The notes beneath the pieces are model-generated. The model searched no databases, was not told where the DNA came from, and worked only from the letters and a program-made list of their open reading frames with translations. Position numbers and translations under genes: made by a program. Below are positions 22,545 through 57,273 of a DNA stretch of 64,000 nucleotides, one piece after another. Source of the DNA: an uncultured Verrucomicrobiota bacterium (GTDB lineage: Bacteria; Verrucomicrobiota; Verrucomicrobiia; Palsa-1439; CAYGDP01); NCBI GenBank assembly GCA_964348665.1, contig CAYGDP010000005.1, positions 29,131 through 93,130 on the forward strand. The letters are read 5' to 3'. Every line of letters begins with the position of its first letter. Position 1 is the first letter of the stretch.

Positions 22545-22736
22545 CAGGGACACACGGCCTCGTGCGTCCTACGAGAGCCGAGTAGGACAAGGCAATCTGT
22601 ATGTAGCGGCGGTCTATGACCGCCGATAGCATGAATCAATAATCCAAATCGGCGCTCGCAGAGCGCCGCTACAATGTAATTTACTCTCGAAGGCCTGAAA
22701 AGCCGAAATAAAATAGCCTAGGGCGTCAGCCCTAGG
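22545..22736. repeat. Cluster of hairpin/REP-like elements between convergent pepA and nnr
   Basis: Hairpin gtcctac/gtaggac (22566-22588). Nested hairpin gtagcggcg ... cgccgctac (22603-22672) with inner stems ggcggtc/gaccgcc and ggcgct/agcgcc. Palindrome cctagggc-gtca-gccctagg (22717-22736). Confidence 0.7.
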
Positions 22737-52483: not shown

Positions 52484-52541
52484 GCGGGGATATTAGCGGC
52501 ATGTGCGGCGCAGACAAGAATAAACCGCTAAGATGCAGCGG

Positions 52542-53042
52542 CTATTCGTTCAACAAATCCTGCGGGAATCCGTCGCGCGGGTCGGTGAGGCCGGCCAGCA
52601 TCGCCAACTCGCGAAACATCTTGCGCAATGCGCCCGTTTCGGTTTTGGATATTCCGTCCGTGGGGATCAAATGAAGTTGCCAGGTTTGACGGTCGAGAGC
52701 GACGCTGACAACGATACCGTCCCAAACGGTGTTTCCCGTGGGTTCGCACGAAATTGTGGGGGATTGGCCGTTAGGAGCAAATGCTTTAATGCTTTCGACG
52801 AGACGATCAACGGCTTCCGGGGATACATCGAGTCGTTTGGCAGTCCAATCGGGTTCGATGTTCCCCTTCACATCATTCCATCGTTTGGTGAGCAGCTCCA
52901 GTTTTGCGGGGCGATCATGAAATCCAAAGGCTTCGAGACGGCCAACAAGCTGGAGGTCACCGCCGCTGATTTCGTGATGGCTTGTTACGATGAAAAGCAT
53001 CTCGAGATGAATGAAATTTCGTATTGGTTCGCTCATTTGCAT
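52542..53042 (-). CDS. Hypothetical protein (no family recognised)
   Basis: 166-aa ORF with a globular-looking composition. Preferred over the antisense ORF 52533-53096. Ends 59 bp upstream of proS and is divergent from the first SLATT-like gene. Confidence 0.55.
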   Translation of the reverse strand: MQMSEPIRNFIHLEMLFIVTSHHEISGGDLQLVGRLEAFGFHDRPAKLELLTKRWNDVKGNIEPDWTAKRLDVSPEAVDRLVESIKAFAPNGQSPTISCEPTGNTVWDGIVVSVALDRQTWQLHLIPTDGISKTETGALRKMFRELAMLAGLTDPRDGFPQDLLNE

Positions 53043-53117
53043 GCAAGCGTAGCATGGCTTAGAAACGAGTCAATCACCCGTTTTGTGCGGGCTTGACACG
53101 GGCTAGTGCGCGGCTTT

Positions 53118-54176
53118 ATGGGTGGAGCGATGGATGTGTTGCAATTGAGCGTTATTTTTGTACGGACGGCTGTGGAATCTGGCACAGAGTCCGATGAATC
53201 GAGCTGGCCGGCGTTGCGCAACCACGTCCGGCGTGCGCAAAAAGAGGAGGATGAGAAAGCTAAAAAAATGCAATCGAGCCGGAATTGGATTGCCCGCGGG
53301 TTGGTCTGGCTCGGCCCTCTGGCGGTGGCAGTTTTAGCATTGGATATTACATTCTCGCCGGACAACCGATTCGAACTATGGCTTTGGTTTATCGAGTTTG
53401 CCATTTTAATCACGATGTTGGTTTTAACAGCGCGAGGGCTCGGAAAAAAAACTCACGAGGAGTGGGTGATGACTCGATTGCGAGCGGAGTTGTTGCGACG
53501 GGAAGAGTATTTGTTTCGCACGCGGCTCGGCCCGTACTTGAGCGACGCCTCTCGGGAGTGGGTTCATCAGCGCGTCTCCGGGATTCAGACCAGCGACGAG
53601 TTGTTGCGATTTACAGCGATGCAGGGCGAACGGCGGGCCAATTGGCATGATGAGTTGGCGGACGCGTGTTTCGAGAATTCGCAAGCAGTCGTGACGATTG
53701 AGCCGGGGTTTGTCGAGTCGTATTTGGATGAACGGCTGGACGATCAAATCAAATATTTTGAAGGACGCAAGTCCTTCAGCAGAATTCAAGAGTGGCGATT
53801 TGAGTTGATCTTGCAATTGGCGCTCATCGCCGCGTTGGTGCTATCCGTGTTGCGGATGATTCCAGATCACGGTGAGCCGCTTTACCGAACGATCAGCTTG
53901 GTTGGCTTGTGTTTACCCGCATTGTGCAGCGGCATCGTCGCTTGGCACGCAGCGTTTGAATATCGGCGAAATCACCGGGCGAGTGAGCAGAAACTTATCG
54001 AATTGCGCCAATTGAAATCCGATTTGGAAGCGCTGCACAAGGAAAATGCGGAGAAAACGGCGGGAGGCGTCTTGCGCATCAAACGCAAGGTTTTGGACAC
54101 GGAAGCAGTCTTGTCGCAGGAACTCTATGAGTGGTGGCTGATCATTGACGCGGCGGAACCCAAAGCCGGAATGTAA
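53118..54176 (+). CDS. 4-TM protein made of two SLATT/DUF4231-like 2-TM modules (paralog A)
   Basis: The first TM hairpin (LVWLGPLAVAVLAL / WLWFIEFAILITMLVLTA) is followed by HEEWVMTRLRAELLRREEYLFRTRLGPYL. The second module is DDQIKYFEGRKS plus a TM hairpin (LILQLALIAALVLSVL / ISLVGLCLPALCSGIVAW) plus a helix. The start is uncertain (GTG 53106, ATG 53118 or 53130). Confidence 0.7.
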   Translation: MGGAMDVLQLSVIFVRTAVESGTESDESSWPALRNHVRRAQKEEDEKAKKMQSSRNWIARGLVWLGPLAVAVLALDITFSPDNRFELWLWFIEFAILITMLVLTARGLGKKTHEEWVMTRLRAELLRREEYLFRTRLGPYLSDASREWVHQRVSGIQTSDELLRFTAMQGERRANWHDELADACFENSQAVVTIEPGFVESYLDERLDDQIKYFEGRKSFSRIQEWRFELILQLALIAALVLSVLRMIPDHGEPLYRTISLVGLCLPALCSGIVAWHAAFEYRRNHRASEQKLIELRQLKSDLEALHKENAEKTAGGVLRIKRKVLDTEAVLSQELYEWWLIIDAAEPKAGM

Positions 54177-54212
54177 GCGCAACCATCGGGGGTCTTGACA
54201 AGGACGGCGCGG

Positions 54213-55250
54213 ATGTGGATTCTCCGAGTGGCGATGTCCGAGCCCCAAAACAATTCCGCAACTTCATGCGACCCGAATTTTGACGCGCTGGAACGCGCTC
54301 GCGCGGCGCAGGATGGCATTGCCCGGAAGCATCAGAGCCGGCGGAAAGGATTGGCTTTGGTATTGCTGGCGTTGAGTGTGATCGCTGTCCTCTGCGGCGC
54401 GATGCAAGGTGCTTGGTTTCCGTTGGAGGGACATACGGAATCGCAGAAATTCATCGCGGTCGGCCTGATTCTCGTCGAGATGTTGGTGTTGGCGGGAATG
54501 TTAGTGTTGGACCGCGTGAAATACGCCGAGGCGAAACATCAGGAGTGGGTTGGGGCGCGGTTGCGCGCGGAGTTGTTGCGTCGCGAAGGGTTCCTCTACC
54601 GGGCGCGGGTCGGACCCTATCTCGCGCGGAGCGACTTGGGACAACGCGTTGCGGACCGCATCTCCCAGATTTCCACGTCAAAAGATTTGTTGTCTCACCT
54701 GTCGTTGCGCGGCGAACACGCGACCTGGCAGGATGAATTGGAAGACGAACGTCATCGAGGCGAGGAAACGCAGCCGCCGGTGGGCGCCGATCTGAATCAA
54801 TCTTTCTCATTCTATCGACAACAGCGCATTGCGGACCAGCAGGGATATTTTGACGCCAAGGCGCGCCAGTTTCAACGGCTGGATTTTCGGCTCAAGGTCG
54901 TTGCCAAGACGGTTGTGACGCTGGCGTTATTGATGAGCACGGCCCACTTTTCGCTGCTTTGGGCGGAGCAGCAACTCGCGCCACTGGCGTTTCTCGCGCA
55001 TTTTCTTCCCGCGTTGAGCGGCGCGATGATCGCGTGGCGGGAAACAGTCCAGAGCAAACGCCTCAAGATGACGTACCGCCGAAAGAGCTCGCAACTGGAA
55101 GAATTACAACGGGATTTTCGTCGACTGACCGAAAACCCGTCGCCATTTTTTTTCAAGCGATTGGTCTTGCGAACCGAAACGGTTCTCTCCCAAGACCTGT
55201 ACGAATGGTGGTTGGTGATGAACCCCGTGACGCCGGAAGGCGATCATTAG
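54213..55250 (+). CDS. 4-TM protein made of two SLATT/DUF4231-like 2-TM modules (paralog B)
   Basis: Same layout as paralog A, with HQEWVGARLRAELLRREGFLYRARVGPYL, ADQQGYFDAKAR and C-terminal VLSQDLYEWWLV (A has VLSQELYEWWLI). The ATG at 54213 has AAGGA 8 nt upstream; alternative starts are 54195 (TTG) and 54234. Confidence 0.7.
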   Translation: MWILRVAMSEPQNNSATSCDPNFDALERARAAQDGIARKHQSRRKGLALVLLALSVIAVLCGAMQGAWFPLEGHTESQKFIAVGLILVEMLVLAGMLVLDRVKYAEAKHQEWVGARLRAELLRREGFLYRARVGPYLARSDLGQRVADRISQISTSKDLLSHLSLRGEHATWQDELEDERHRGEETQPPVGADLNQSFSFYRQQRIADQQGYFDAKARQFQRLDFRLKVVAKTVVTLALLMSTAHFSLLWAEQQLAPLAFLAHFLPALSGAMIAWRETVQSKRLKMTYRRKSSQLEELQRDFRRLTENPSPFFFKRLVLRTETVLSQDLYEWWLVMNPVTPEGDH

Positions 55251-55831
55251 CGGCGGCGTGGCAATCCTTCGACGAGGACGCGGCCTTGTTCGCGGCCGAG
55301 TGACGTTGGTTCTAGGGTGCCCGGCTTGCGATTTCCCGCGAGGACAATGACGATTGGTTTGTGACGAGCGCGCGCTTCCGCAATGACCTCTGAAGTTCCA
55401 CCACGGCCTTGGGCGGGCAGGTTGTCGGACACAGCCAACAACACATCACACCTCGCCACCATCCATGTCCCAGCACGGGCGTAACTTTCCTCGCGTGACT
55501 CGGCAGCGGATAGGATTACAGTCTTTTTTGCCCGAGCCAACAAAGCATCGAAATGAATCCACGATGGCGATCCCTCCGGGCCGAAATCTTTTACATATTC
55601 CCTTCGCGGCATAGGCAACAGCGCGAGCATCTCGGCCCCGGGCAACAGTAGAATCATTTCCGCACAAACTCGATCCGCGCCCTCGGCCAATTGCGAGATG
55701 ACACGAATCTGTCGCCGCGGAAAGGCACTTCGAATCGAGGCAACCGCCTTCTCGATTCCCGAGCGCAAACGCTCCAGGTCAGCGAGTATCCGATGGCCAG
55801 TAACGGCGATGGTTAACGGGCGCGTTTCCAT
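55247..55831 (-). CDS. Stand-alone SLOG-superfamily protein (YpsA/DUF1273-like Rossmannoid)
   Basis: 194 aa. The strand-motif order matches YpsA: LTIAVTGHRIL, VISQLAEGADRVCAEM, LALLPMP, DVLLAVSDNLPAQGRGGTSEVI, PIVIV. Its start overlaps the TIR gene end by 19 bp, and its stop overlaps the paralog B stop by 4 bp. Confidence 0.65.
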   Translation of the reverse strand: METRPLTIAVTGHRILADLERLRSGIEKAVASIRSAFPRRQIRVISQLAEGADRVCAEMILLLPGAEMLALLPMPRREYVKDFGPEGSPSWIHFDALLARAKKTVILSAAESREESYARAGTWMVARCDVLLAVSDNLPAQGRGGTSEVIAEARARHKPIVIVLAGNRKPGTLEPTSLGREQGRVLVEGLPRRR

Positions 55832-57018
55832 AGAACGGGTTTTGATCCTTTTTGAGTCCCGGTGTAAGAATTATTGTCCAAGAACTGATACTTTCCCTCG
55901 GTTACCACGCCCGACTTGGAGATAATTTGAAAATTTCCATCCTTGGCGGTATAGCGGCCAGTGTCTTCGCAGACGGCAACAAACCGATACGGTCCCTGGG
56001 GGCTGGTGAACAAATTCAGCTTCCAAGTCTGACCGCTGATCACCAAATCCAAATCCCATCGGGCATCAAAACCGCTCTGGGCGATCTGATTGTATTTCCA
56101 TACGTCACCGTTGGGGTCGATCGGGGGCGGCGAGCCGTACCCAGCCGTCAAAAATATCCAAAACGCGGGTGGAATGGCATTGACCACGCGCATGGTATCT
56201 TTGCCGAGTTGGCCGGCAACGATTCGCGCTGCTTTGCCATCGGGGATGTAGTAGCAGATTTTATTGGCATCGAAATGAATCCGACCAGTTTCTTCAATGG
56301 TGCATACCCCTCGATATTTCATATCATTGTCTATGCGCGTGGTCATCTTTACCGTGATGGAGTCCGCTGCTTGCGGCGACATTTCCCATGCGCCAACGAA
56401 TTTTTGCTCATCCGATTCCGCGGGTGCGACGACGACCGATGGTTTGCCGTCCTGTGTTTGAGGTGGGGTTACAATCACGGTTGGCGGTGGGCGAGTGTTC
56501 CACCACCAAATTGCTCCGCCGAGAATGACAGCGGCAACGGCCATTGCGCCTGCTTTCGTCAGCTCGCGTTTTCGCTGCAACCGCGTGTTCGAGCGCAGCA
56601 TTTTCACGACCCGTTCAATGGCGGAATCGCTGTGTTCGTGGGAATAGGTCACGCAATTGTGGCCGGACAAATGGGAAATGGCCGATGGCAATTGATCGGG
56701 GGTGGGGATGGCAAAATCCTCGGTGCGCAACAGCACCACGTTGCGCTTGGTGGCAAACGCGTGAACGATTTCCTGCAGCACCCAGTCGTCCTCGTTCTTG
56801 CACCGCTCCAGTGAGTTGGCGGTCAGCAACAGCAAAAAATCCGGGGTGGATTCGATGGTTTTTTTGAGTGCTTCGTCAAATCGTCCCGACCGAAGCTCGC
56901 GCACATCGAGGAACACGTTGTAGCCATGGGCCGTCAGGGAGTTGCGAATCACCTGTGCCAAGGCCGATCCGCCATCGCGACGATAGCTGATGAACACATC
57001 ATACGGTTTTTCGCTCAT
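55813..57018 (-). CDS. TIR domain - single TM - extracytoplasmic beta-rich domain protein
   Basis: From the ATG at 57018: MSEKPYDVFISYRRDGGSALAQVIRNSLTAHGYNVFLD...NEDDWVLQEIVHA, a TIR with a candidate catalytic Glu. Then a KR-rich linker, a TM helix (AGAMAVAAVILGGAIWWW), a Pro-rich linker and about 230 aa of unknown fold. The ORF-track extension to 57462 is rejected. Confidence 0.85.
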   Translation of the reverse strand: MSEKPYDVFISYRRDGGSALAQVIRNSLTAHGYNVFLDVRELRSGRFDEALKKTIESTPDFLLLLTANSLERCKNEDDWVLQEIVHAFATKRNVVLLRTEDFAIPTPDQLPSAISHLSGHNCVTYSHEHSDSAIERVVKMLRSNTRLQRKRELTKAGAMAVAAVILGGAIWWWNTRPPPTVIVTPPQTQDGKPSVVVAPAESDEQKFVGAWEMSPQAADSITVKMTTRIDNDMKYRGVCTIEETGRIHFDANKICYYIPDGKAARIVAGQLGKDTMRVVNAIPPAFWIFLTAGYGSPPPIDPNGDVWKYNQIAQSGFDARWDLDLVISGQTWKLNLFTSPQGPYRFVAVCEDTGRYTAKDGNFQIISKSGVVTEGKYQFLDNNSYTGTQKGSKPVLWKRAR

Positions 57019-57133: not shown

Positions 57134-57169
57134 TGACATAAATTGTAACGATCGTTACAAATTATGTCA
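57134..57169. promoter_or_regulatory. 36-bp near-perfect palindrome (operator-like) in the divergent intergenic region
   Basis: TGACATAAATTGTAACGA|TCGTTACAAATTATGTCA with one mismatch; the core TTGTAACGATCGTTACAA is perfect. It lies about 115 bp from the TIR ATG and about 105 bp from the isomerase ATG. Confidence 0.6.
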
Positions 57170-57273
57170 TGGTTATTGAGGGAGGATTTACTTTGTGAAG
57201 GCTGGTAAATCATCATTGAGTTGCCGGGCGGTTTTTGCCAATCTGTGCCGTTCAACCGGAAAGGAGATCGTTT

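What the first reader, a model, noticed from the sequence alone, without database searches (positions are those of the whole stretch)
55813..57018. TIR protein with Toll-like-receptor-style topology (cytosolic TIR, one TM, extracytoplasmic domain)
- Residues 1-140 form a TIR domain (YDVFISYRRDGG ... DWVLQEIVHA).
- A Lys/Arg-rich stretch (RSNTRLQRKRELTK) precedes a single hydrophobic helix (AGAMAVAAVILGGAIWWW). By the positive-inside rule this places the TIR in the cytoplasm.
- After the helix come a proline-rich linker (RPPPTVIVTPPQTQ) and about 230 residues of beta-rich sequence with no motif I recognise.

Most characterised defence TIR proteins are soluble and sense events inside the cell. 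A TIR wired to a periplasm-facing domain suggests sensing at the envelope. The input could be phage adsorption or injection, envelope damage or a secreted cue.
Basis: partly seen in the sequence, partly recalled or inferred. Interest (0 to 1): 0.7.

Follow-up and report, generated by a model that had tools for sequence, protein, structure and literature searches.

The report
Membrane-anchored SARM1-like TIR sensor cassette
This gene encodes a membrane protein with a SARM1-type NAD-cleaving TIR domain inside the cell and a new beta-barrel sensor-like domain outside, and it belongs to a conserved cassette with a nucleotide-binding SLOG protein and SLATT pore proteins, so it looks like a Thoeris-type suicide or immunity switch that may be triggered from outside the cell.

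Summary
The gene lies on the minus strand at 55813-57018 and encodes 401 aa.

- **TIR domain:** SARM1-type (E 1.7e-27 to TIR-1/SARM1). The catalytic Glu (E83 = SARM1 E642) and the pocket residues are conserved.
- **Topology:** one TM helix (aa 153-173) follows the positive-inside rule, also family-wide (79 vs 26 K+R).
- **C-terminal 212 aa:** a confident all-beta tandem of two ~85-100 aa modules ('X2'; pLDDT 93.8) with no Pfam or PDB relative. Elsewhere X2 follows signal peptides or lipoboxes, or a Ser/Thr kinase plus TM, so it is extracytoplasmic.

The TIR gene overlaps a YpsA-like SLOG gene (Foldseek E 6e-8) and faces two SLATT 4TM genes. The cassette is conserved in both orthologous loci. 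In about 40 of 87 related loci SLOG and SLATT are fused in one protein. About half of the loci have a TIR within 4 kb, often TIR-TM-variable ectodomain.

The likely mechanism is Thoeris-like: an outside cue activates the TIR, an NAD-derived signal (probably cADPR) is made, SLOG senses it, and SLATT forms a pore. TIR+SLATT is type VII Thoeris, and 'TIR + 4TM SLOG' is already predicted (Yirmiya 2025). This is therefore a new variant, with a membrane-anchored TIR and a new ectodomain.

The parts
55813..57018 (-). TIR-TM-X2 gene (401 aa plus stop): predicted sensor and signal generator of the cassette
   Evidence: ORF and translation. The same 401-aa gene call is made in L087. Only two full-length orthologues exist in 5.8 billion proteins (P0002 71%, P0003 57%).
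56578..57018 (-). Cytoplasmic SARM1-type TIR domain (aa 1-147)
   Evidence: Pfam TIR_2 E 9e-13. phmmer vs PDB: C. elegans TIR-1 E 1.7e-27 and human SARM1 E 4e-26, aligned end to end. Identity is 41.3% to TIR-1 and 36.6% to human SARM1.
56770..56772 (-). Codon of the predicted catalytic Glu, E83, in the motif DWVLQE
   Evidence: Aligns with SARM1 E642 in DWVHKE. W638->W79, F603->F47, G601->G45, D594->D38 and R569/R570->R13/R14 are also conserved.
56500..56562 (-). Single transmembrane helix (aa 153-173), preceded by a Lys/Arg-rich stretch
   Evidence: KD19 peak 1.63, with 6 K/R before and 1 after. The family-wide bias is 79 vs 26 K+R.
56452..56499 (-). Pro-rich linker (aa 174-189)
   Evidence: Read directly from the sequence. 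It lies upstream of the modelled folded region.
56119..56412 (-). X2 module 1 (about aa 203-300): VGAW strand, seven strands and one helix, with a ~30-aa insert specific to this orthologue group
   Evidence: Alignment A3, AF2 secondary structure, and repeat mapping by phmmer.
55816..56118 (-). X2 module 2 (about aa 301-401): eight strands, ending in the conserved VLWKR
   Evidence: This module matches twice in most relatives. Conserved G354, Y377, W397 and R399. AF2 model.
55247..55831 (-). SLOG-fold protein of the YpsA/YAcAr-like clade (194 aa). Its start overlaps the TIR gene's 3' end by 19 nt. Predicted receptor, or possibly processor, of the TIR product.
   Evidence: AF2 pLDDT 95.7. Foldseek: YpsA 2nx2 E 6e-8 (TM 0.60/0.65), ShosA E 7e-6, then LOGs, TRPM4/5 and ThsA SLOG with 3'cADPR. 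Invariant GxTGHR, AEGADR and QGxGGTG motifs. Weak Pfam YAcAr hit; the relative in L069 passes the YAcAr cut-off.
54195..55250 (+). SLATT protein B (DUF4231/SLATT_3-like plus SLATT_1, four TM helices; the likely start is ATG 54213, giving 345 aa). Predicted pore-forming effector.
   Evidence: Pfam SLATT_1 E 1e-11 and DUF4231 E 2.5e-7. NCBIfam SLATT_1 E 3e-18. TM peaks. Gene call in L087.
53106..54176 (+). SLATT protein A, a paralogue of B (31% identity; the likely start is ATG 53130, giving 348 aa)
   Evidence: Pfam SLATT_1 E 7.7e-10 and DUF4231 E 1.4e-6. NCBIfam SLATT_1 E 6e-20. BLASTP between A and B E 2e-41.
55247..55250 (.). Convergent overlap of the SLOG and SLATT-B stop codons (TTAG: TAA on the minus strand, TAG on the plus strand)
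   Evidence: Sequence. The same 4-nt overlap occurs in L001 and a 10-nt overlap in L002/L003.
57142..57170 (-). Promoter-like site (ATGACA-17-TACAAT, 10 of 12 matches) about 125 nt upstream of the TIR start. This is weak evidence only.
   Evidence: The number of such sites in the region is no higher than in shuffled sequence.

Best explanation
The ORF encodes a single-pass inner-membrane protein with its N-terminus inside the cell. It has a cytoplasmic SARM1-type TIR NAD+ glycohydrolase/cyclase domain (catalytic E83), one TM helix, a Pro-rich linker, and an extracytoplasmic tandem beta-barrel-like module (X2). It is the signal-generating, and probably the sensing, subunit of a four-gene Thoeris-like cassette. 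The other genes are a stand-alone YpsA-like SLOG protein, whose gene overlaps the TIR gene's 3' end by 19 nt, and two convergent 4TM SLATT proteins.

Proposed mechanism:
1. A cue at the envelope changes the state or oligomerisation of X2. The cue could be a ligand, envelope damage or phage contact.
2. The cytoplasmic TIR domains are brought together and become active.
3. NAD+ is converted to an ADP-ribose-derived messenger. Canonical cADPR is the best guess, by analogy with SARM1 and type VII Thoeris.
4. SLOG binds the messenger.
5. The SLATT proteins open or assemble a pore, causing depolarisation, growth arrest or death.

Shown here: domain identities, conservation of the catalytic residues, fold models, the predicted topology, conservation of the gene cluster, and SLOG-SLATT fusions in relatives.

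Inferred: enzymatic activity, the identity of the messenger, SLOG acting as receptor, SLATT acting as pore, the nature of the trigger, and an anti-phage role.
For: **TIR domain.** E 1.7e-27 to SARM1/TIR-1, with E642 and the pocket residues conserved.

**Topology.**
- Hydropathy and positive-inside bias in the protein and across the family.
- X2 occurs directly after signal peptides or lipoboxes, and after Pkinase plus TM.
- The nearest structural analogue is the periplasmic sensor domain of ToxS (prob 1.0, TM 0.51-0.56 over the target).

**Cassette.**
- TIR-TM-X2, then SLOG, then convergent SLATT is kept in L001 (71% identity) and in L002/L003 (57% identity, different outer flanks).
- Two distant TIR-TM-X2 proteins from another TIR clade (P0224, P0228) also sit beside SLOG-SLATT fusions.

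**SLOG.** Foldseek gives YpsA at E 6e-8, and the hit list includes the ThsA SLOG domain bound to 3'cADPR.

**SLOG-SLATT link.** 37-40 of 87 loci encode both in one 510-660 aa protein, confirmed by Pfam for L038, L066 and L069.

**TIR link.** A TIR gene lies within 4 kb in 43 of 87 loci. Of about 20 directly adjacent partners, 12 are TIR-1TM-variable C-terminus proteins carrying CARDB, TPR or repeat domains.

**Literature.**
- TIR+SLATT is type VII Thoeris, which signals with cADPR.
- 'TIR + 4TM SLOG' is listed as a putative Thoeris type (10.64898/2025.12.03.692087).
- SLATT is predicted to be an ADPr-derivative-gated pore, and the YpsA-clade SLOG to be a cADPr sensor (PMC9503650, PMC7159879).
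Against: - Nothing here is experimental.
- The window's TM helix is only moderately hydrophobic (KD 1.63; 1.54 in P0002).
- The cassette sits among housekeeping genes (proS, tgt, AP-endonuclease-like, LolA-like), not in an obvious defence island, and its GC content equals that of the window.
- PADLOC recognises neither the SLOG nor the SLATT proteins.
- The two '4TM SLOG' systems tested in E. coli gave no phage defence.
- Two of three other SARM1-like TIR-1TM proteins examined have no SLOG or SLATT neighbour.
- Known Thoeris TIRs sense phage inside the cell.
- The SLOG family is essentially absent from viral contigs.
- X2 has no characterised relative, so its ligand is unknown.
Confidence: 0.6

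Rival explanations
1. The cassette is the same, but the ectodomain is an anchor or localiser, not the sensor. X2 and the TM helix only hold the TIR at the membrane next to the SLATT effector, or tether it to an envelope structure. The TIR itself is triggered in the cytoplasm by a phage component, as in canonical Thoeris.
For: Characterised ThsB TIRs are activated intracellularly by phage infection (10.64898/2025.12.03.692087). About 8 of 20 TIR partners directly adjacent to SLOG(-SLATT) genes lack a TM helix, yet presumably feed the same effector.
Against: The ectodomains vary widely (X2, CARDB, TPR, Ig-like repeats) on a conserved TIR-TM chassis. X2 is also reused behind a Ser/Thr kinase plus TM. 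Both are typical of input modules, not anchors. The best structural analogue, ToxS, is itself a periplasmic sensor domain.
Confidence: 0.17
2. This is not immunity. It is a physiological outside-in signalling or regulated cell-death device, in which an environmental or envelope-stress ligand bound by the lipocalin-like X2 controls a cADPR/ADPR second messenger that gates a SLATT channel.
For: The neighbourhood is housekeeping, with no mobile-element or compositional signature. The cassette is adjacent to the same AP-endonuclease-like gene in the 71%-identity relative L001, which suggests vertical inheritance. Tested '4TM SLOG' systems gave no phage defence. X2 is shared with a receptor-type Ser/Thr kinase. 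The SLOG family is nearly absent from viral contigs.
Against: TIR+SLATT systems are validated anti-phage systems. Other members of this SLOG family lie in dense conflict-type islands with TIR-NB-ARC, NUDIX, a deaminase and NACHT/WD40. Distribution is patchy: only two orthologues in 5.8 billion proteins.
Confidence: 0.15
3. The roles are reversed or different. The TIR is the terminal NAD+-depleting effector, or the SLOG is an enzyme that makes or trims the signal (LOG-like N-glycosidase activity) and not a receptor.
For: SARM1 kills by NAD+ depletion. Many bacterial TIRs are effectors. SLOG domains include enzymes, and the family keeps a LOG-like GGT-x-E motif.
Against: Fusion of this SLOG family directly to SLATT in about 40 loci fits a ligand-sensing head on a pore better than it fits a free enzyme. 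A cassette with a dedicated pore effector does not need a second killing module.
Confidence: 0.06
4. The hydrophobic segment is not a membrane span, and the whole protein is soluble and cytoplasmic.
For: The hydropathy score is borderline (1.63; 1.54 in P0002) and the helix is Ala/Gly-rich.
Against: All 20 TIR-TM-X2 proteins have a hydrophobic segment at the same position, most with KD above 2. The charge bias is strong. X2 occurs behind signal peptides in at least six other proteins.
Confidence: 0.02

Closest known systems
Type VII Thoeris (ThsB TIR + SLATT effector ThsH; Yirmiya et al. 2025 preprint)
   Same: A TIR gene is paired with a SLATT-domain membrane effector. The expected logic is a TIR-made NAD-derived messenger that opens a membrane-breaching SLATT assembly. 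The messenger there is canonical cADPR, the product of SARM1, which is the closest solved relative of this TIR.
   Different: Here a separate SLOG protein sits between the TIR and SLATT genes. There are two SLATT paralogues, each with a double 2TM unit. The genes form convergent units rather than a two-gene operon. The TIR is membrane-anchored with an external domain. The passages I searched in that preprint mention TM helices only for effectors.
Putative Thoeris type 'TIR + SLOG and 4TM' (Yirmiya et al. 2025, Tables S1/S2; not validated)
   Same: A TIR next to a protein with a SLOG domain and four TM helices matches the SLOG-double-SLATT fusions I found in about 40 loci related to this cassette.
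   Different: In the window SLOG and the 4TM part are separate genes. Equivalence of the families is inferred from architecture only: the published TIR sequences are just 25-32% identical to TIRs in my loci. The two systems tested gave no defence in E. coli.
Animal SARM1 / C. elegans TIR-1 TIR domain
   Same: 36.6-41.3% identity over the whole domain. The catalytic Glu, W638, F603, G601, D594 and R569/R570 are all conserved.
   Different: There are no ARM or SAM domains. The TIR is N-terminal and followed by a TM helix and an ectodomain. The gene is prokaryotic and part of a cassette.
Type I Thoeris (ThsB TIR + ThsA SIR2-SLOG)
   Same: A TIR signal generator plus a SLOG-fold protein. The ThsA SLOG domain bound to 3'cADPR is among the structural matches of the window's SLOG.
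   Different: There is no SIR2 domain. The effector is a SLATT membrane protein. The SLOG belongs to the YpsA/YAcAr-like clade and is closest to YpsA and ShosA.
Toll-like receptors
   Same: Same topology in principle: a sensor domain outside, one TM helix, and a TIR in the cytosol.
   Different: The domain order is reversed (TIR N-terminal). There is no LRR ectodomain. The TIR is of the enzymatic SARM1 type, not an adaptor type. Nothing suggests common descent of the whole architecture.
Vibrio ToxS periplasmic domain / lipocalin-like barrels
   Same: It is the best structural analogue of X2 (prob 1.0, TM 0.51-0.56 over the target). X2 modules begin with a lipocalin-style GxW strand and have about eight antiparallel strands.
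   Different: No Foldseek match reaches E 0.001, and TM scores to lipocalins are only about 0.15. There is no sequence similarity. X2 is a tandem of two small modules.

Membership tests
TIR domain superfamily (Pfam TIR_2) | Profile match above the curated cut-off | tested here: met
   49.2 bits against a cut-off of 28, E 9e-13, aa 8-135.
Enzymatic (NADase) TIR of the SARM1 type | Catalytic Glu on the alpha-C helix (SARM1 E642) and conserved NAD-pocket residues | tested here: met
   E83 aligns with E642. W79, F47, G45, D38 and R13/R14 align with W638, F603, G601, D594 and R569/R570.
Enzymatic (NADase) TIR of the SARM1 type | Demonstrated NAD+ cleavage or cyclisation | not testable with these tools
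   This needs a biochemical assay of aa 1-150 with and without E83A.
SARM1 orthologue | ARM-SAM-SAM-TIR architecture | tested here: not met
   Only TIR, TM and X2 are present. There are no ARM or SAM hits.
Type VII Thoeris | TIR gene adjacent to a SLATT-domain effector gene | tested here: met
   SLATT_1 proteins at 53106-54176 and 54195-55250 lie one gene away from the TIR gene. The arrangement is conserved in L001-L003.
Type VII Thoeris | Two-gene TIR + SLATT operon in which the SLATT protein itself receives the signal (no SLOG) | tested here: not met
   A conserved SLOG gene lies between them, and the SLATT genes are convergent to the TIR-SLOG pair.
Type VII Thoeris | cADPR as messenger, and anti-phage protection | not testable with these tools
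   This needs LC-MS of the TIR products and phage challenge.
Putative Thoeris 'TIR + SLOG and 4TM' | SLOG domain and four TM helices in one effector protein next to a TIR | tested here: not met
   The window has the split form (SLOG 194 aa; SLATT 345 and 348 aa). The fused form is found in 37-40 related loci, including beside the distant TIR-TM-X2 proteins.
SLOG superfamily (YpsA/YAcAr-like clade), neighbour gene 55247-55831 | Rossmannoid SLOG fold with a Gly-rich loop after strand 1 and a GGxGT-like motif | tested here: met
   Foldseek: YpsA E 6e-8 (TM 0.60/0.65), ShosA, LOGs, TRPM and ThsA SLOG. Invariant GxTGHR and QGxGGTG motifs. The window protein's Pfam YAcAr score is only 14.8 bits (cut-off 28.2), but the relative in L069 scores 29.4 bits.
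SLATT (neighbour genes) | Pfam/NCBIfam SLATT profile above the cut-off, and 2TM hairpins | tested here: met
   Pfam SLATT_1 at 39.3 and 45.4 bits (cut-off 26.3). NCBIfam at 71.5 and 66 bits (cut-off 41). Four hydrophobic peaks in each protein.
Toll-like receptor | N-terminal LRR ectodomain, TM helix, C-terminal TIR | tested here: not met
   The order is reversed, there are no LRRs, and the ectodomain is the X2 beta module.
Lipocalin/calycin or ToxS-like fold (X2 domain) | Eight-stranded antiparallel barrel that superposes on known members | tested here: inconclusive
   No Foldseek match reaches E 0.001. ToxS gives TM 0.51-0.56 over the target, and lipocalins give TM about 0.15. The PDB profile search found nothing. 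Model coordinates could not be inspected.
Extracytoplasmic location of X2 | Module found behind export signals and behind the TM of receptor-type proteins; positive-inside bias | tested here: met
   Signal peptide or lipobox-X2 proteins P0225, P0231, P0242, P0247, P0255 and P0258. Pkinase-TM-X2 protein P0248. K+R 79 vs 26. Experimental topology was not tested.

The most novel reading that the evidence does not exclude
This is a true bacterial outside-in TIR receptor. An extracytoplasmic cue bound by the lipocalin/ToxS-like X2 domain switches on a cytoplasmic SARM1-type TIR. The cue could be a phage at the surface, an envelope-damage product or a secreted molecule. The cADPR-type product is read by SLOG and opens a SLATT pore. 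Membrane-anchored TIRs with interchangeable ectodomains (X2, CARDB, TPR, Ig-like) would then be a family of prokaryotic surface immune or death receptors, functionally parallel to Toll-like receptors. Their TIR clade would be among the closest bacterial relatives of animal SARM1.
Probability: 0.35. Interest if true: 0.85.

Novelty: new variant of a known kind. Interest (0 to 1): 0.62.

Why it matters
How Thoeris-type TIR proteins perceive infection is still poorly understood, and the characterised examples act inside the cell. A TIR whose only extra parts are a TM helix and a swappable external domain gives a direct experimental handle on activation, through ectodomain swaps, forced dimerisation and ligand screens.

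It would also extend bacterial nucleotide-messenger immunity, or regulated cell death, to sensing at the cell surface.

The pairing with SLOG-SLATT could help explain an orphan predicted class ('TIR + 4TM SLOG') that failed in E. coli tests, possibly because the trigger is extracytoplasmic or host-specific.

The X2 module is a new, confidently folded, unannotated extracytoplasmic domain family that is shared with Ser/Thr kinases and lipoproteins.

The strong similarity to SARM1 bears on the bacterial origin of the animal axon-death enzyme.

Tried and rejected
- **Profile census of X2 (A3) in the 5.8-billion-protein database:** no hits. This is probably a word-index limitation, because the single-sequence exhaustive search found 44.
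- **The search for related loci with A3:** I used the SLOG alignment instead.
- **Sequence searches of the PDB:** nothing meaningful with the X2 profile or the SLOG profile.
- **Foldseek of X2 against viral structures:** nothing significant.
- **PADLOC:** only partial TIR-domain matches to other systems, and nothing for SLOG or SLATT. The NCBIfam 'Thoeris type III ThcB4' hit is a TIR-domain-only match (47.8 bits against a cut-off of 220), so I rejected membership.
- **First iterated SLATT HMM:** it drifted into SLOG sequence because of fusion proteins. I discarded it and rebuilt it from envelope-trimmed domains.
- **Burroughs et al. 2015 (the original SLOG/SLATT paper):** not held. I cite its claims only through later Aravind-lab papers.
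- **Comparison of the preprint's '4TM SLOG' partner TIRs with TIRs in my loci:** only 25-32% identity, so it does not prove the families are the same.
- **Viral-contig scan for the SLOG family:** one locus only.
- **The 166-aa ORF at 52542-53042 as a fifth component:** no hits, and it is not conserved in L001-L003 or L088, so I rejected it.
- **The long 549-aa ORF version of the TIR gene:** rejected, because the orthologues and the TIR-1TM family all start at the TIR.
- **Taxonomy of the window:** not determined. The only hint is an Acido-Lenti-1 RNA.
Full report
**1. Observation**

The feature is a real gene on the minus strand, 55813-57018, encoding 401 aa. An independent gene call on the same sequence in a public assembly gives the same 401-aa product (L087). 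Both orthologues begin at the equivalent Met. The longer in-frame ORF reaching 57462 overlaps the divergent AP-endonuclease-like gene and is not supported.

**2. The three parts of the protein**

(a) *TIR domain, aa 1-147.*
- Pfam TIR_2 scores 49 bits against a cut-off of 28.
- The domain is of the SARM1 type. phmmer against all PDB chains gives E 1.7e-27 to C. elegans TIR-1 and about 4e-26 to human SARM1, aligned end to end. The next family, plant Roq1, is at E 0.004.
- Identity is 41.3% to TIR-1 and 36.6% to human SARM1.
- E83 in DWVLQE aligns with the catalytic E642. W638, F603, G601, D594 and R569/R570 are also conserved.

(b) *TM helix, aa 153-173.*
- It is the only hydrophobic segment (KD19 1.63), with 6 K/R before it and 1 after.
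- The score is modest, but all 20 TIR-TM-X2 proteins have a hydrophobic segment at the same place, most with KD 2.0-2.9.
- The summed K+R count is 79 on the TIR side and 26 on the far side, with the TIR side higher in 19 of 20 proteins. In 51 other SARM1-like TIR-1TM proteins the counts are 225 vs 119, with the TIR side higher in 47 of 51.

(c) *C-terminal region, aa 190-401.*
- It has no hit in Pfam, NCBIfam or PADLOC.
- An exhaustive phmmer search of 1.84 billion representative proteins found 44 relatives.
- Mapping these showed that the region is a tandem of two modules of about 85-100 aa, which I call X2. Each follows the pattern VGxW...G.Y...(D/E).G...G.W...S...G.Y...D.D...G..VWKR.
- With that alignment AlphaFold2 gives a confident all-beta model: pLDDT 93.8, pTM 0.87, about eight strands per module, and a short helix before the GxW strand.
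- Foldseek finds no solved structure at E 0.001 or better. The best analogues are the periplasmic sensor domain of Vibrio ToxS (prob 1.0, TM 0.51-0.56 over the target) and lipocalins (poor TM scores).
- Sequence profiles find nothing in the PDB, and the viral structure library finds nothing.

**3. Where X2 sits**

The architectures of the 44 relatives settle the predicted location.
- About 20 are TIR-TM-X2 proteins, but with a different TIR clade.
- At least six have X2 directly after a signal peptide or lipobox. An example is P0242, MNRLWVVCFLLLLVGCSNASATDPALVGTWE. Some of these also carry TPR repeats.
- One is Ser/Thr kinase-TM-X2 (P0248), the classic receptor-kinase layout.
- One combines X2 with a caspase domain.

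X2 is therefore an extracytoplasmic module and the TIR is cytoplasmic. That fits with the TIR's substrate, NAD+, being cytoplasmic (established knowledge).

**4.

- The TIR gene's last 19 nt overlap the start of a 194-aa gene (55247-55831, minus strand).
- That gene's stop codon overlaps, convergently, the stop codon of the second of two paralogous genes on the plus strand (53106-54176 and 54195-55250; TTAG at 55247-55250).
- The two plus-strand proteins are SLATT proteins. Each has a DUF4231/SLATT_3-like 2TM unit plus a SLATT_1 2TM unit, so four TM helices in all. They pass the Pfam and NCBIfam cut-offs and are 31% identical to each other.
- The 194-aa protein has no Pfam family above the cut-off, only a weak YAcAr hit. 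It belongs to an unannotated family of about 100 clusters with invariant GxTGHR, AEGADR, WDG and QGxGGTG motifs.
- Its AlphaFold2 model (pLDDT 95.7) matches B. subtilis YpsA (E 6e-8, TM 0.60/0.65) and ShosA of the Shosta defence system. Further down the list are LOG enzymes, the TRPM4/5 N-terminal domains, and the ThsA SLOG domain bound to 3'cADPR. It is a SLOG-fold protein of the YpsA/YAcAr-like clade.

**5. Is the cassette a unit?**

- Only two full-length orthologues of the TIR protein exist in 5.8 billion proteins: P0002 (71% identity) and P0003 (57%).
- Both loci keep the order TIR-TM-X2, SLOG, convergent SLATT. L001 has two SLATT genes and L002/L003 have one.
- The outer flanks of L002/L003 are unrelated to those of the window.
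- Two distant TIR-TM-X2 proteins from the other TIR clade (P0224, P0228; about 32-34% identity in X2) also lie next to a protein with SLOG (E 1e-37) and SLATT (E 1e-62) regions. In L091 that protein is cut by the contig end, and its SLATT region scores E 1.5e-59.

**6. The wider family**

Using the SLOG alignment as anchor, at least 494 loci were confirmed in GTDB species genomes across many phyla, and 80 were fetched. I then ran a local census with HMMs built here, correcting an initial profile drift.
- 37-40 of 87 loci encode SLOG fused N-terminally to a double-SLATT region of about 300 aa, in one protein of 510-660 aa.
- 12 loci have separate SLOG and SLATT genes.
- 38 loci have SLOG alone.
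- Pfam confirms SLATT_3/DUF4231 plus SLATT_1 in the fusions, and YAcAr (29.4 bits against a cut-off of 28.2) in one of them.

The fusions are Rosetta-stone evidence that this SLOG works with SLATT.

A TIR gene lies within 4 kb in 43 of 87 loci. This is a lower bound, and it is far above what chance would give for a gene family that occurs about once per genome (inference). Of roughly 20 directly adjacent TIR partners, 12 again have the layout TIR, one TM helix, variable C-terminus: CARDB x2 in L038, TPR in L052 and L066, and triple repeats in L054.

The association is not universal. Of three other SARM1-like TIR-1TM proteins examined, one has a SLATT-type protein in its gene string and two have neither partner. 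Overall, 53 of the 120 best TIR hits share the TIR-1TM-C-terminal-domain layout, so the architecture itself is common in metagenomes.

**7. Mechanism**

The best-supported reading is a Thoeris-like relay.
1. A membrane-anchored TIR makes an NAD-derived messenger when it is activated.
2. SLOG receives the messenger.
3. SLATT forms or opens a pore.

The literature supports each link by analogy.
- The ThsA SLOG domain binds 3'cADPR.
- SLATT is a predicted ADPr-derivative-gated pore (PMC9503650, PMC7159879).
- TIR+SLATT is the experimentally validated type VII Thoeris, which uses canonical cADPR. The same preprint lists 'TIR + 4TM SLOG' as a putative type whose two tested examples did not protect E. 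coli (10.64898/2025.12.03.692087).
- Because SARM1 makes cADPR (stated in that preprint), cADPR is my best guess for the messenger.

The idea that the ectodomain is the input is inferred from three things: its location, its variability on a constant TIR-TM chassis, and its reuse on a receptor kinase.

I rate the whole chain at about 0.6. Identity of the cassette I rate at about 0.85, and outside-in activation at about 0.4-0.5. The rivals are:
- the ectodomain is an anchor only;
- the system has a non-immune physiological signalling or cell-death role, favoured by the housekeeping neighbourhood and the lack of any mobile-element signal;
- the TIR is the effector, or the SLOG is an enzyme;
- the helix is not a membrane span, which I consider very unlikely.

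**8. Comparison and novelty**

The system works like Thoeris and is closest to type VII and to the predicted 'SLOG and 4TM' type. It fails defining features of each as a strict member: a SLOG gene intervenes, and SLOG and SLATT are split. It is not a SARM1 orthologue (no ARM or SAM domains), and it is not a TLR (reversed order, no LRRs).

In the held literature I found no description of membrane-anchored bacterial TIRs with extracytoplasmic domains paired with SLOG-SLATT. The original 2015 paper was not available, so prior mention there cannot be excluded.

I class the finding as a new variant of a known kind. Three elements appear new: the X2 domain family, the membrane-anchored sensor-TIR theme, and the split SLOG/SLATT form.

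**9. Verdict**

Interest is 0.62.

Noticed in passing
window 22691-22736 (-): An Acido-Lenti-1 RNA motif (RF01687, 56.4 bits against a gathering score of 37) is the only Rfam hit in the window. There are no tRNA genes in 64 kb. It hints at an Acidobacteriota- or Lentisphaerota-like host.
   Followed up: no
window 55247-55250; L001 3986-3989; L002 9715-9724: The stop codons of the SLOG gene and the convergent SLATT gene overlap (TTAG encodes TAA on one strand and TAG on the other). The overlap is conserved in the orthologous loci and leaves no room for terminators. This might mean transcriptional interference or antisense coupling between the sensor and effector units.
   Followed up: partly
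window 56578-57018 (-): This bacterial TIR is 36.6% identical to human SARM1 and 41.3% identical to C. elegans TIR-1 over the whole domain (E about 1e-27). A 2020 TIR survey (PMC7075850) reported finding no bacterial SARM1 homologues. PDB scores to SARM1/TIR-1 (94-99 bits) are similar to the scores of most of its bacterial relatives (about 96-124 bits).
   Followed up: partly
L006 389-10290: Another member of the SLOG family sits in a dense nucleotide-signalling island. The island has TIR-NB-ARC-TPR, a deaminase, RelA_SpoT-LSDAT_prok-RyR, SLOG, a 661-aa PFK-like protein, a second TIR and NUDIX.
   Followed up: no
P0248, P0266, P0242, P0247, P0255, P0258, P0265 (relatives of window 55816-56451): The X2 module also occurs behind a Ser/Thr kinase plus TM, together with a caspase domain, and in exported or lipoprotein-type proteins with TPR repeats. 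It is an unannotated extracytoplasmic domain family, and only two members weakly hit Pfam DUF5640.
   Followed up: partly
alignment A1; window 55250-55340 (-) (SLOG C-terminus): Stand-alone SLOG proteins share a nearly invariant C-terminal motif, AGNRKPGTxEPTSLGxEQGRV. The SLOG-SLATT fusions lack it (their matches stop near aa 163). It could be a docking element for the separate SLATT or another partner.
   Followed up: no
L051 7893-10469: An 858-aa protein carries two tandem SLOG domains followed by the double-SLATT region.
   Followed up: no
window 52542-53042 (-) / 52533-53096 (+); L088 5583-6178: A 166-aa ORF with no database hit lies between proS and the SLATT genes, and a 187-aa ORF covers it on the opposite strand. 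A gene caller calls it in L087. In the near-identical variant L088 the region holds different small ORFs, so it is probably not part of the cassette.
   Followed up: partly
L094 5001-9769: A SARM1-like TIR-1TM gene is followed by a Flp-type pilin, a prepilin peptidase (A24) and a 976-aa TIR-HD_3 protein, with no SLOG or SLATT. This is a different partner set for a membrane-anchored TIR.
   Followed up: no
L004 6001-12325: In an Actinobacteria MAG the stand-alone SLOG is followed by an unannotated 707-aa protein, a ClpB-like double-AAA protein and a TIR_2 protein. This may be another SLOG-TIR system with a different effector.
   Followed up: no
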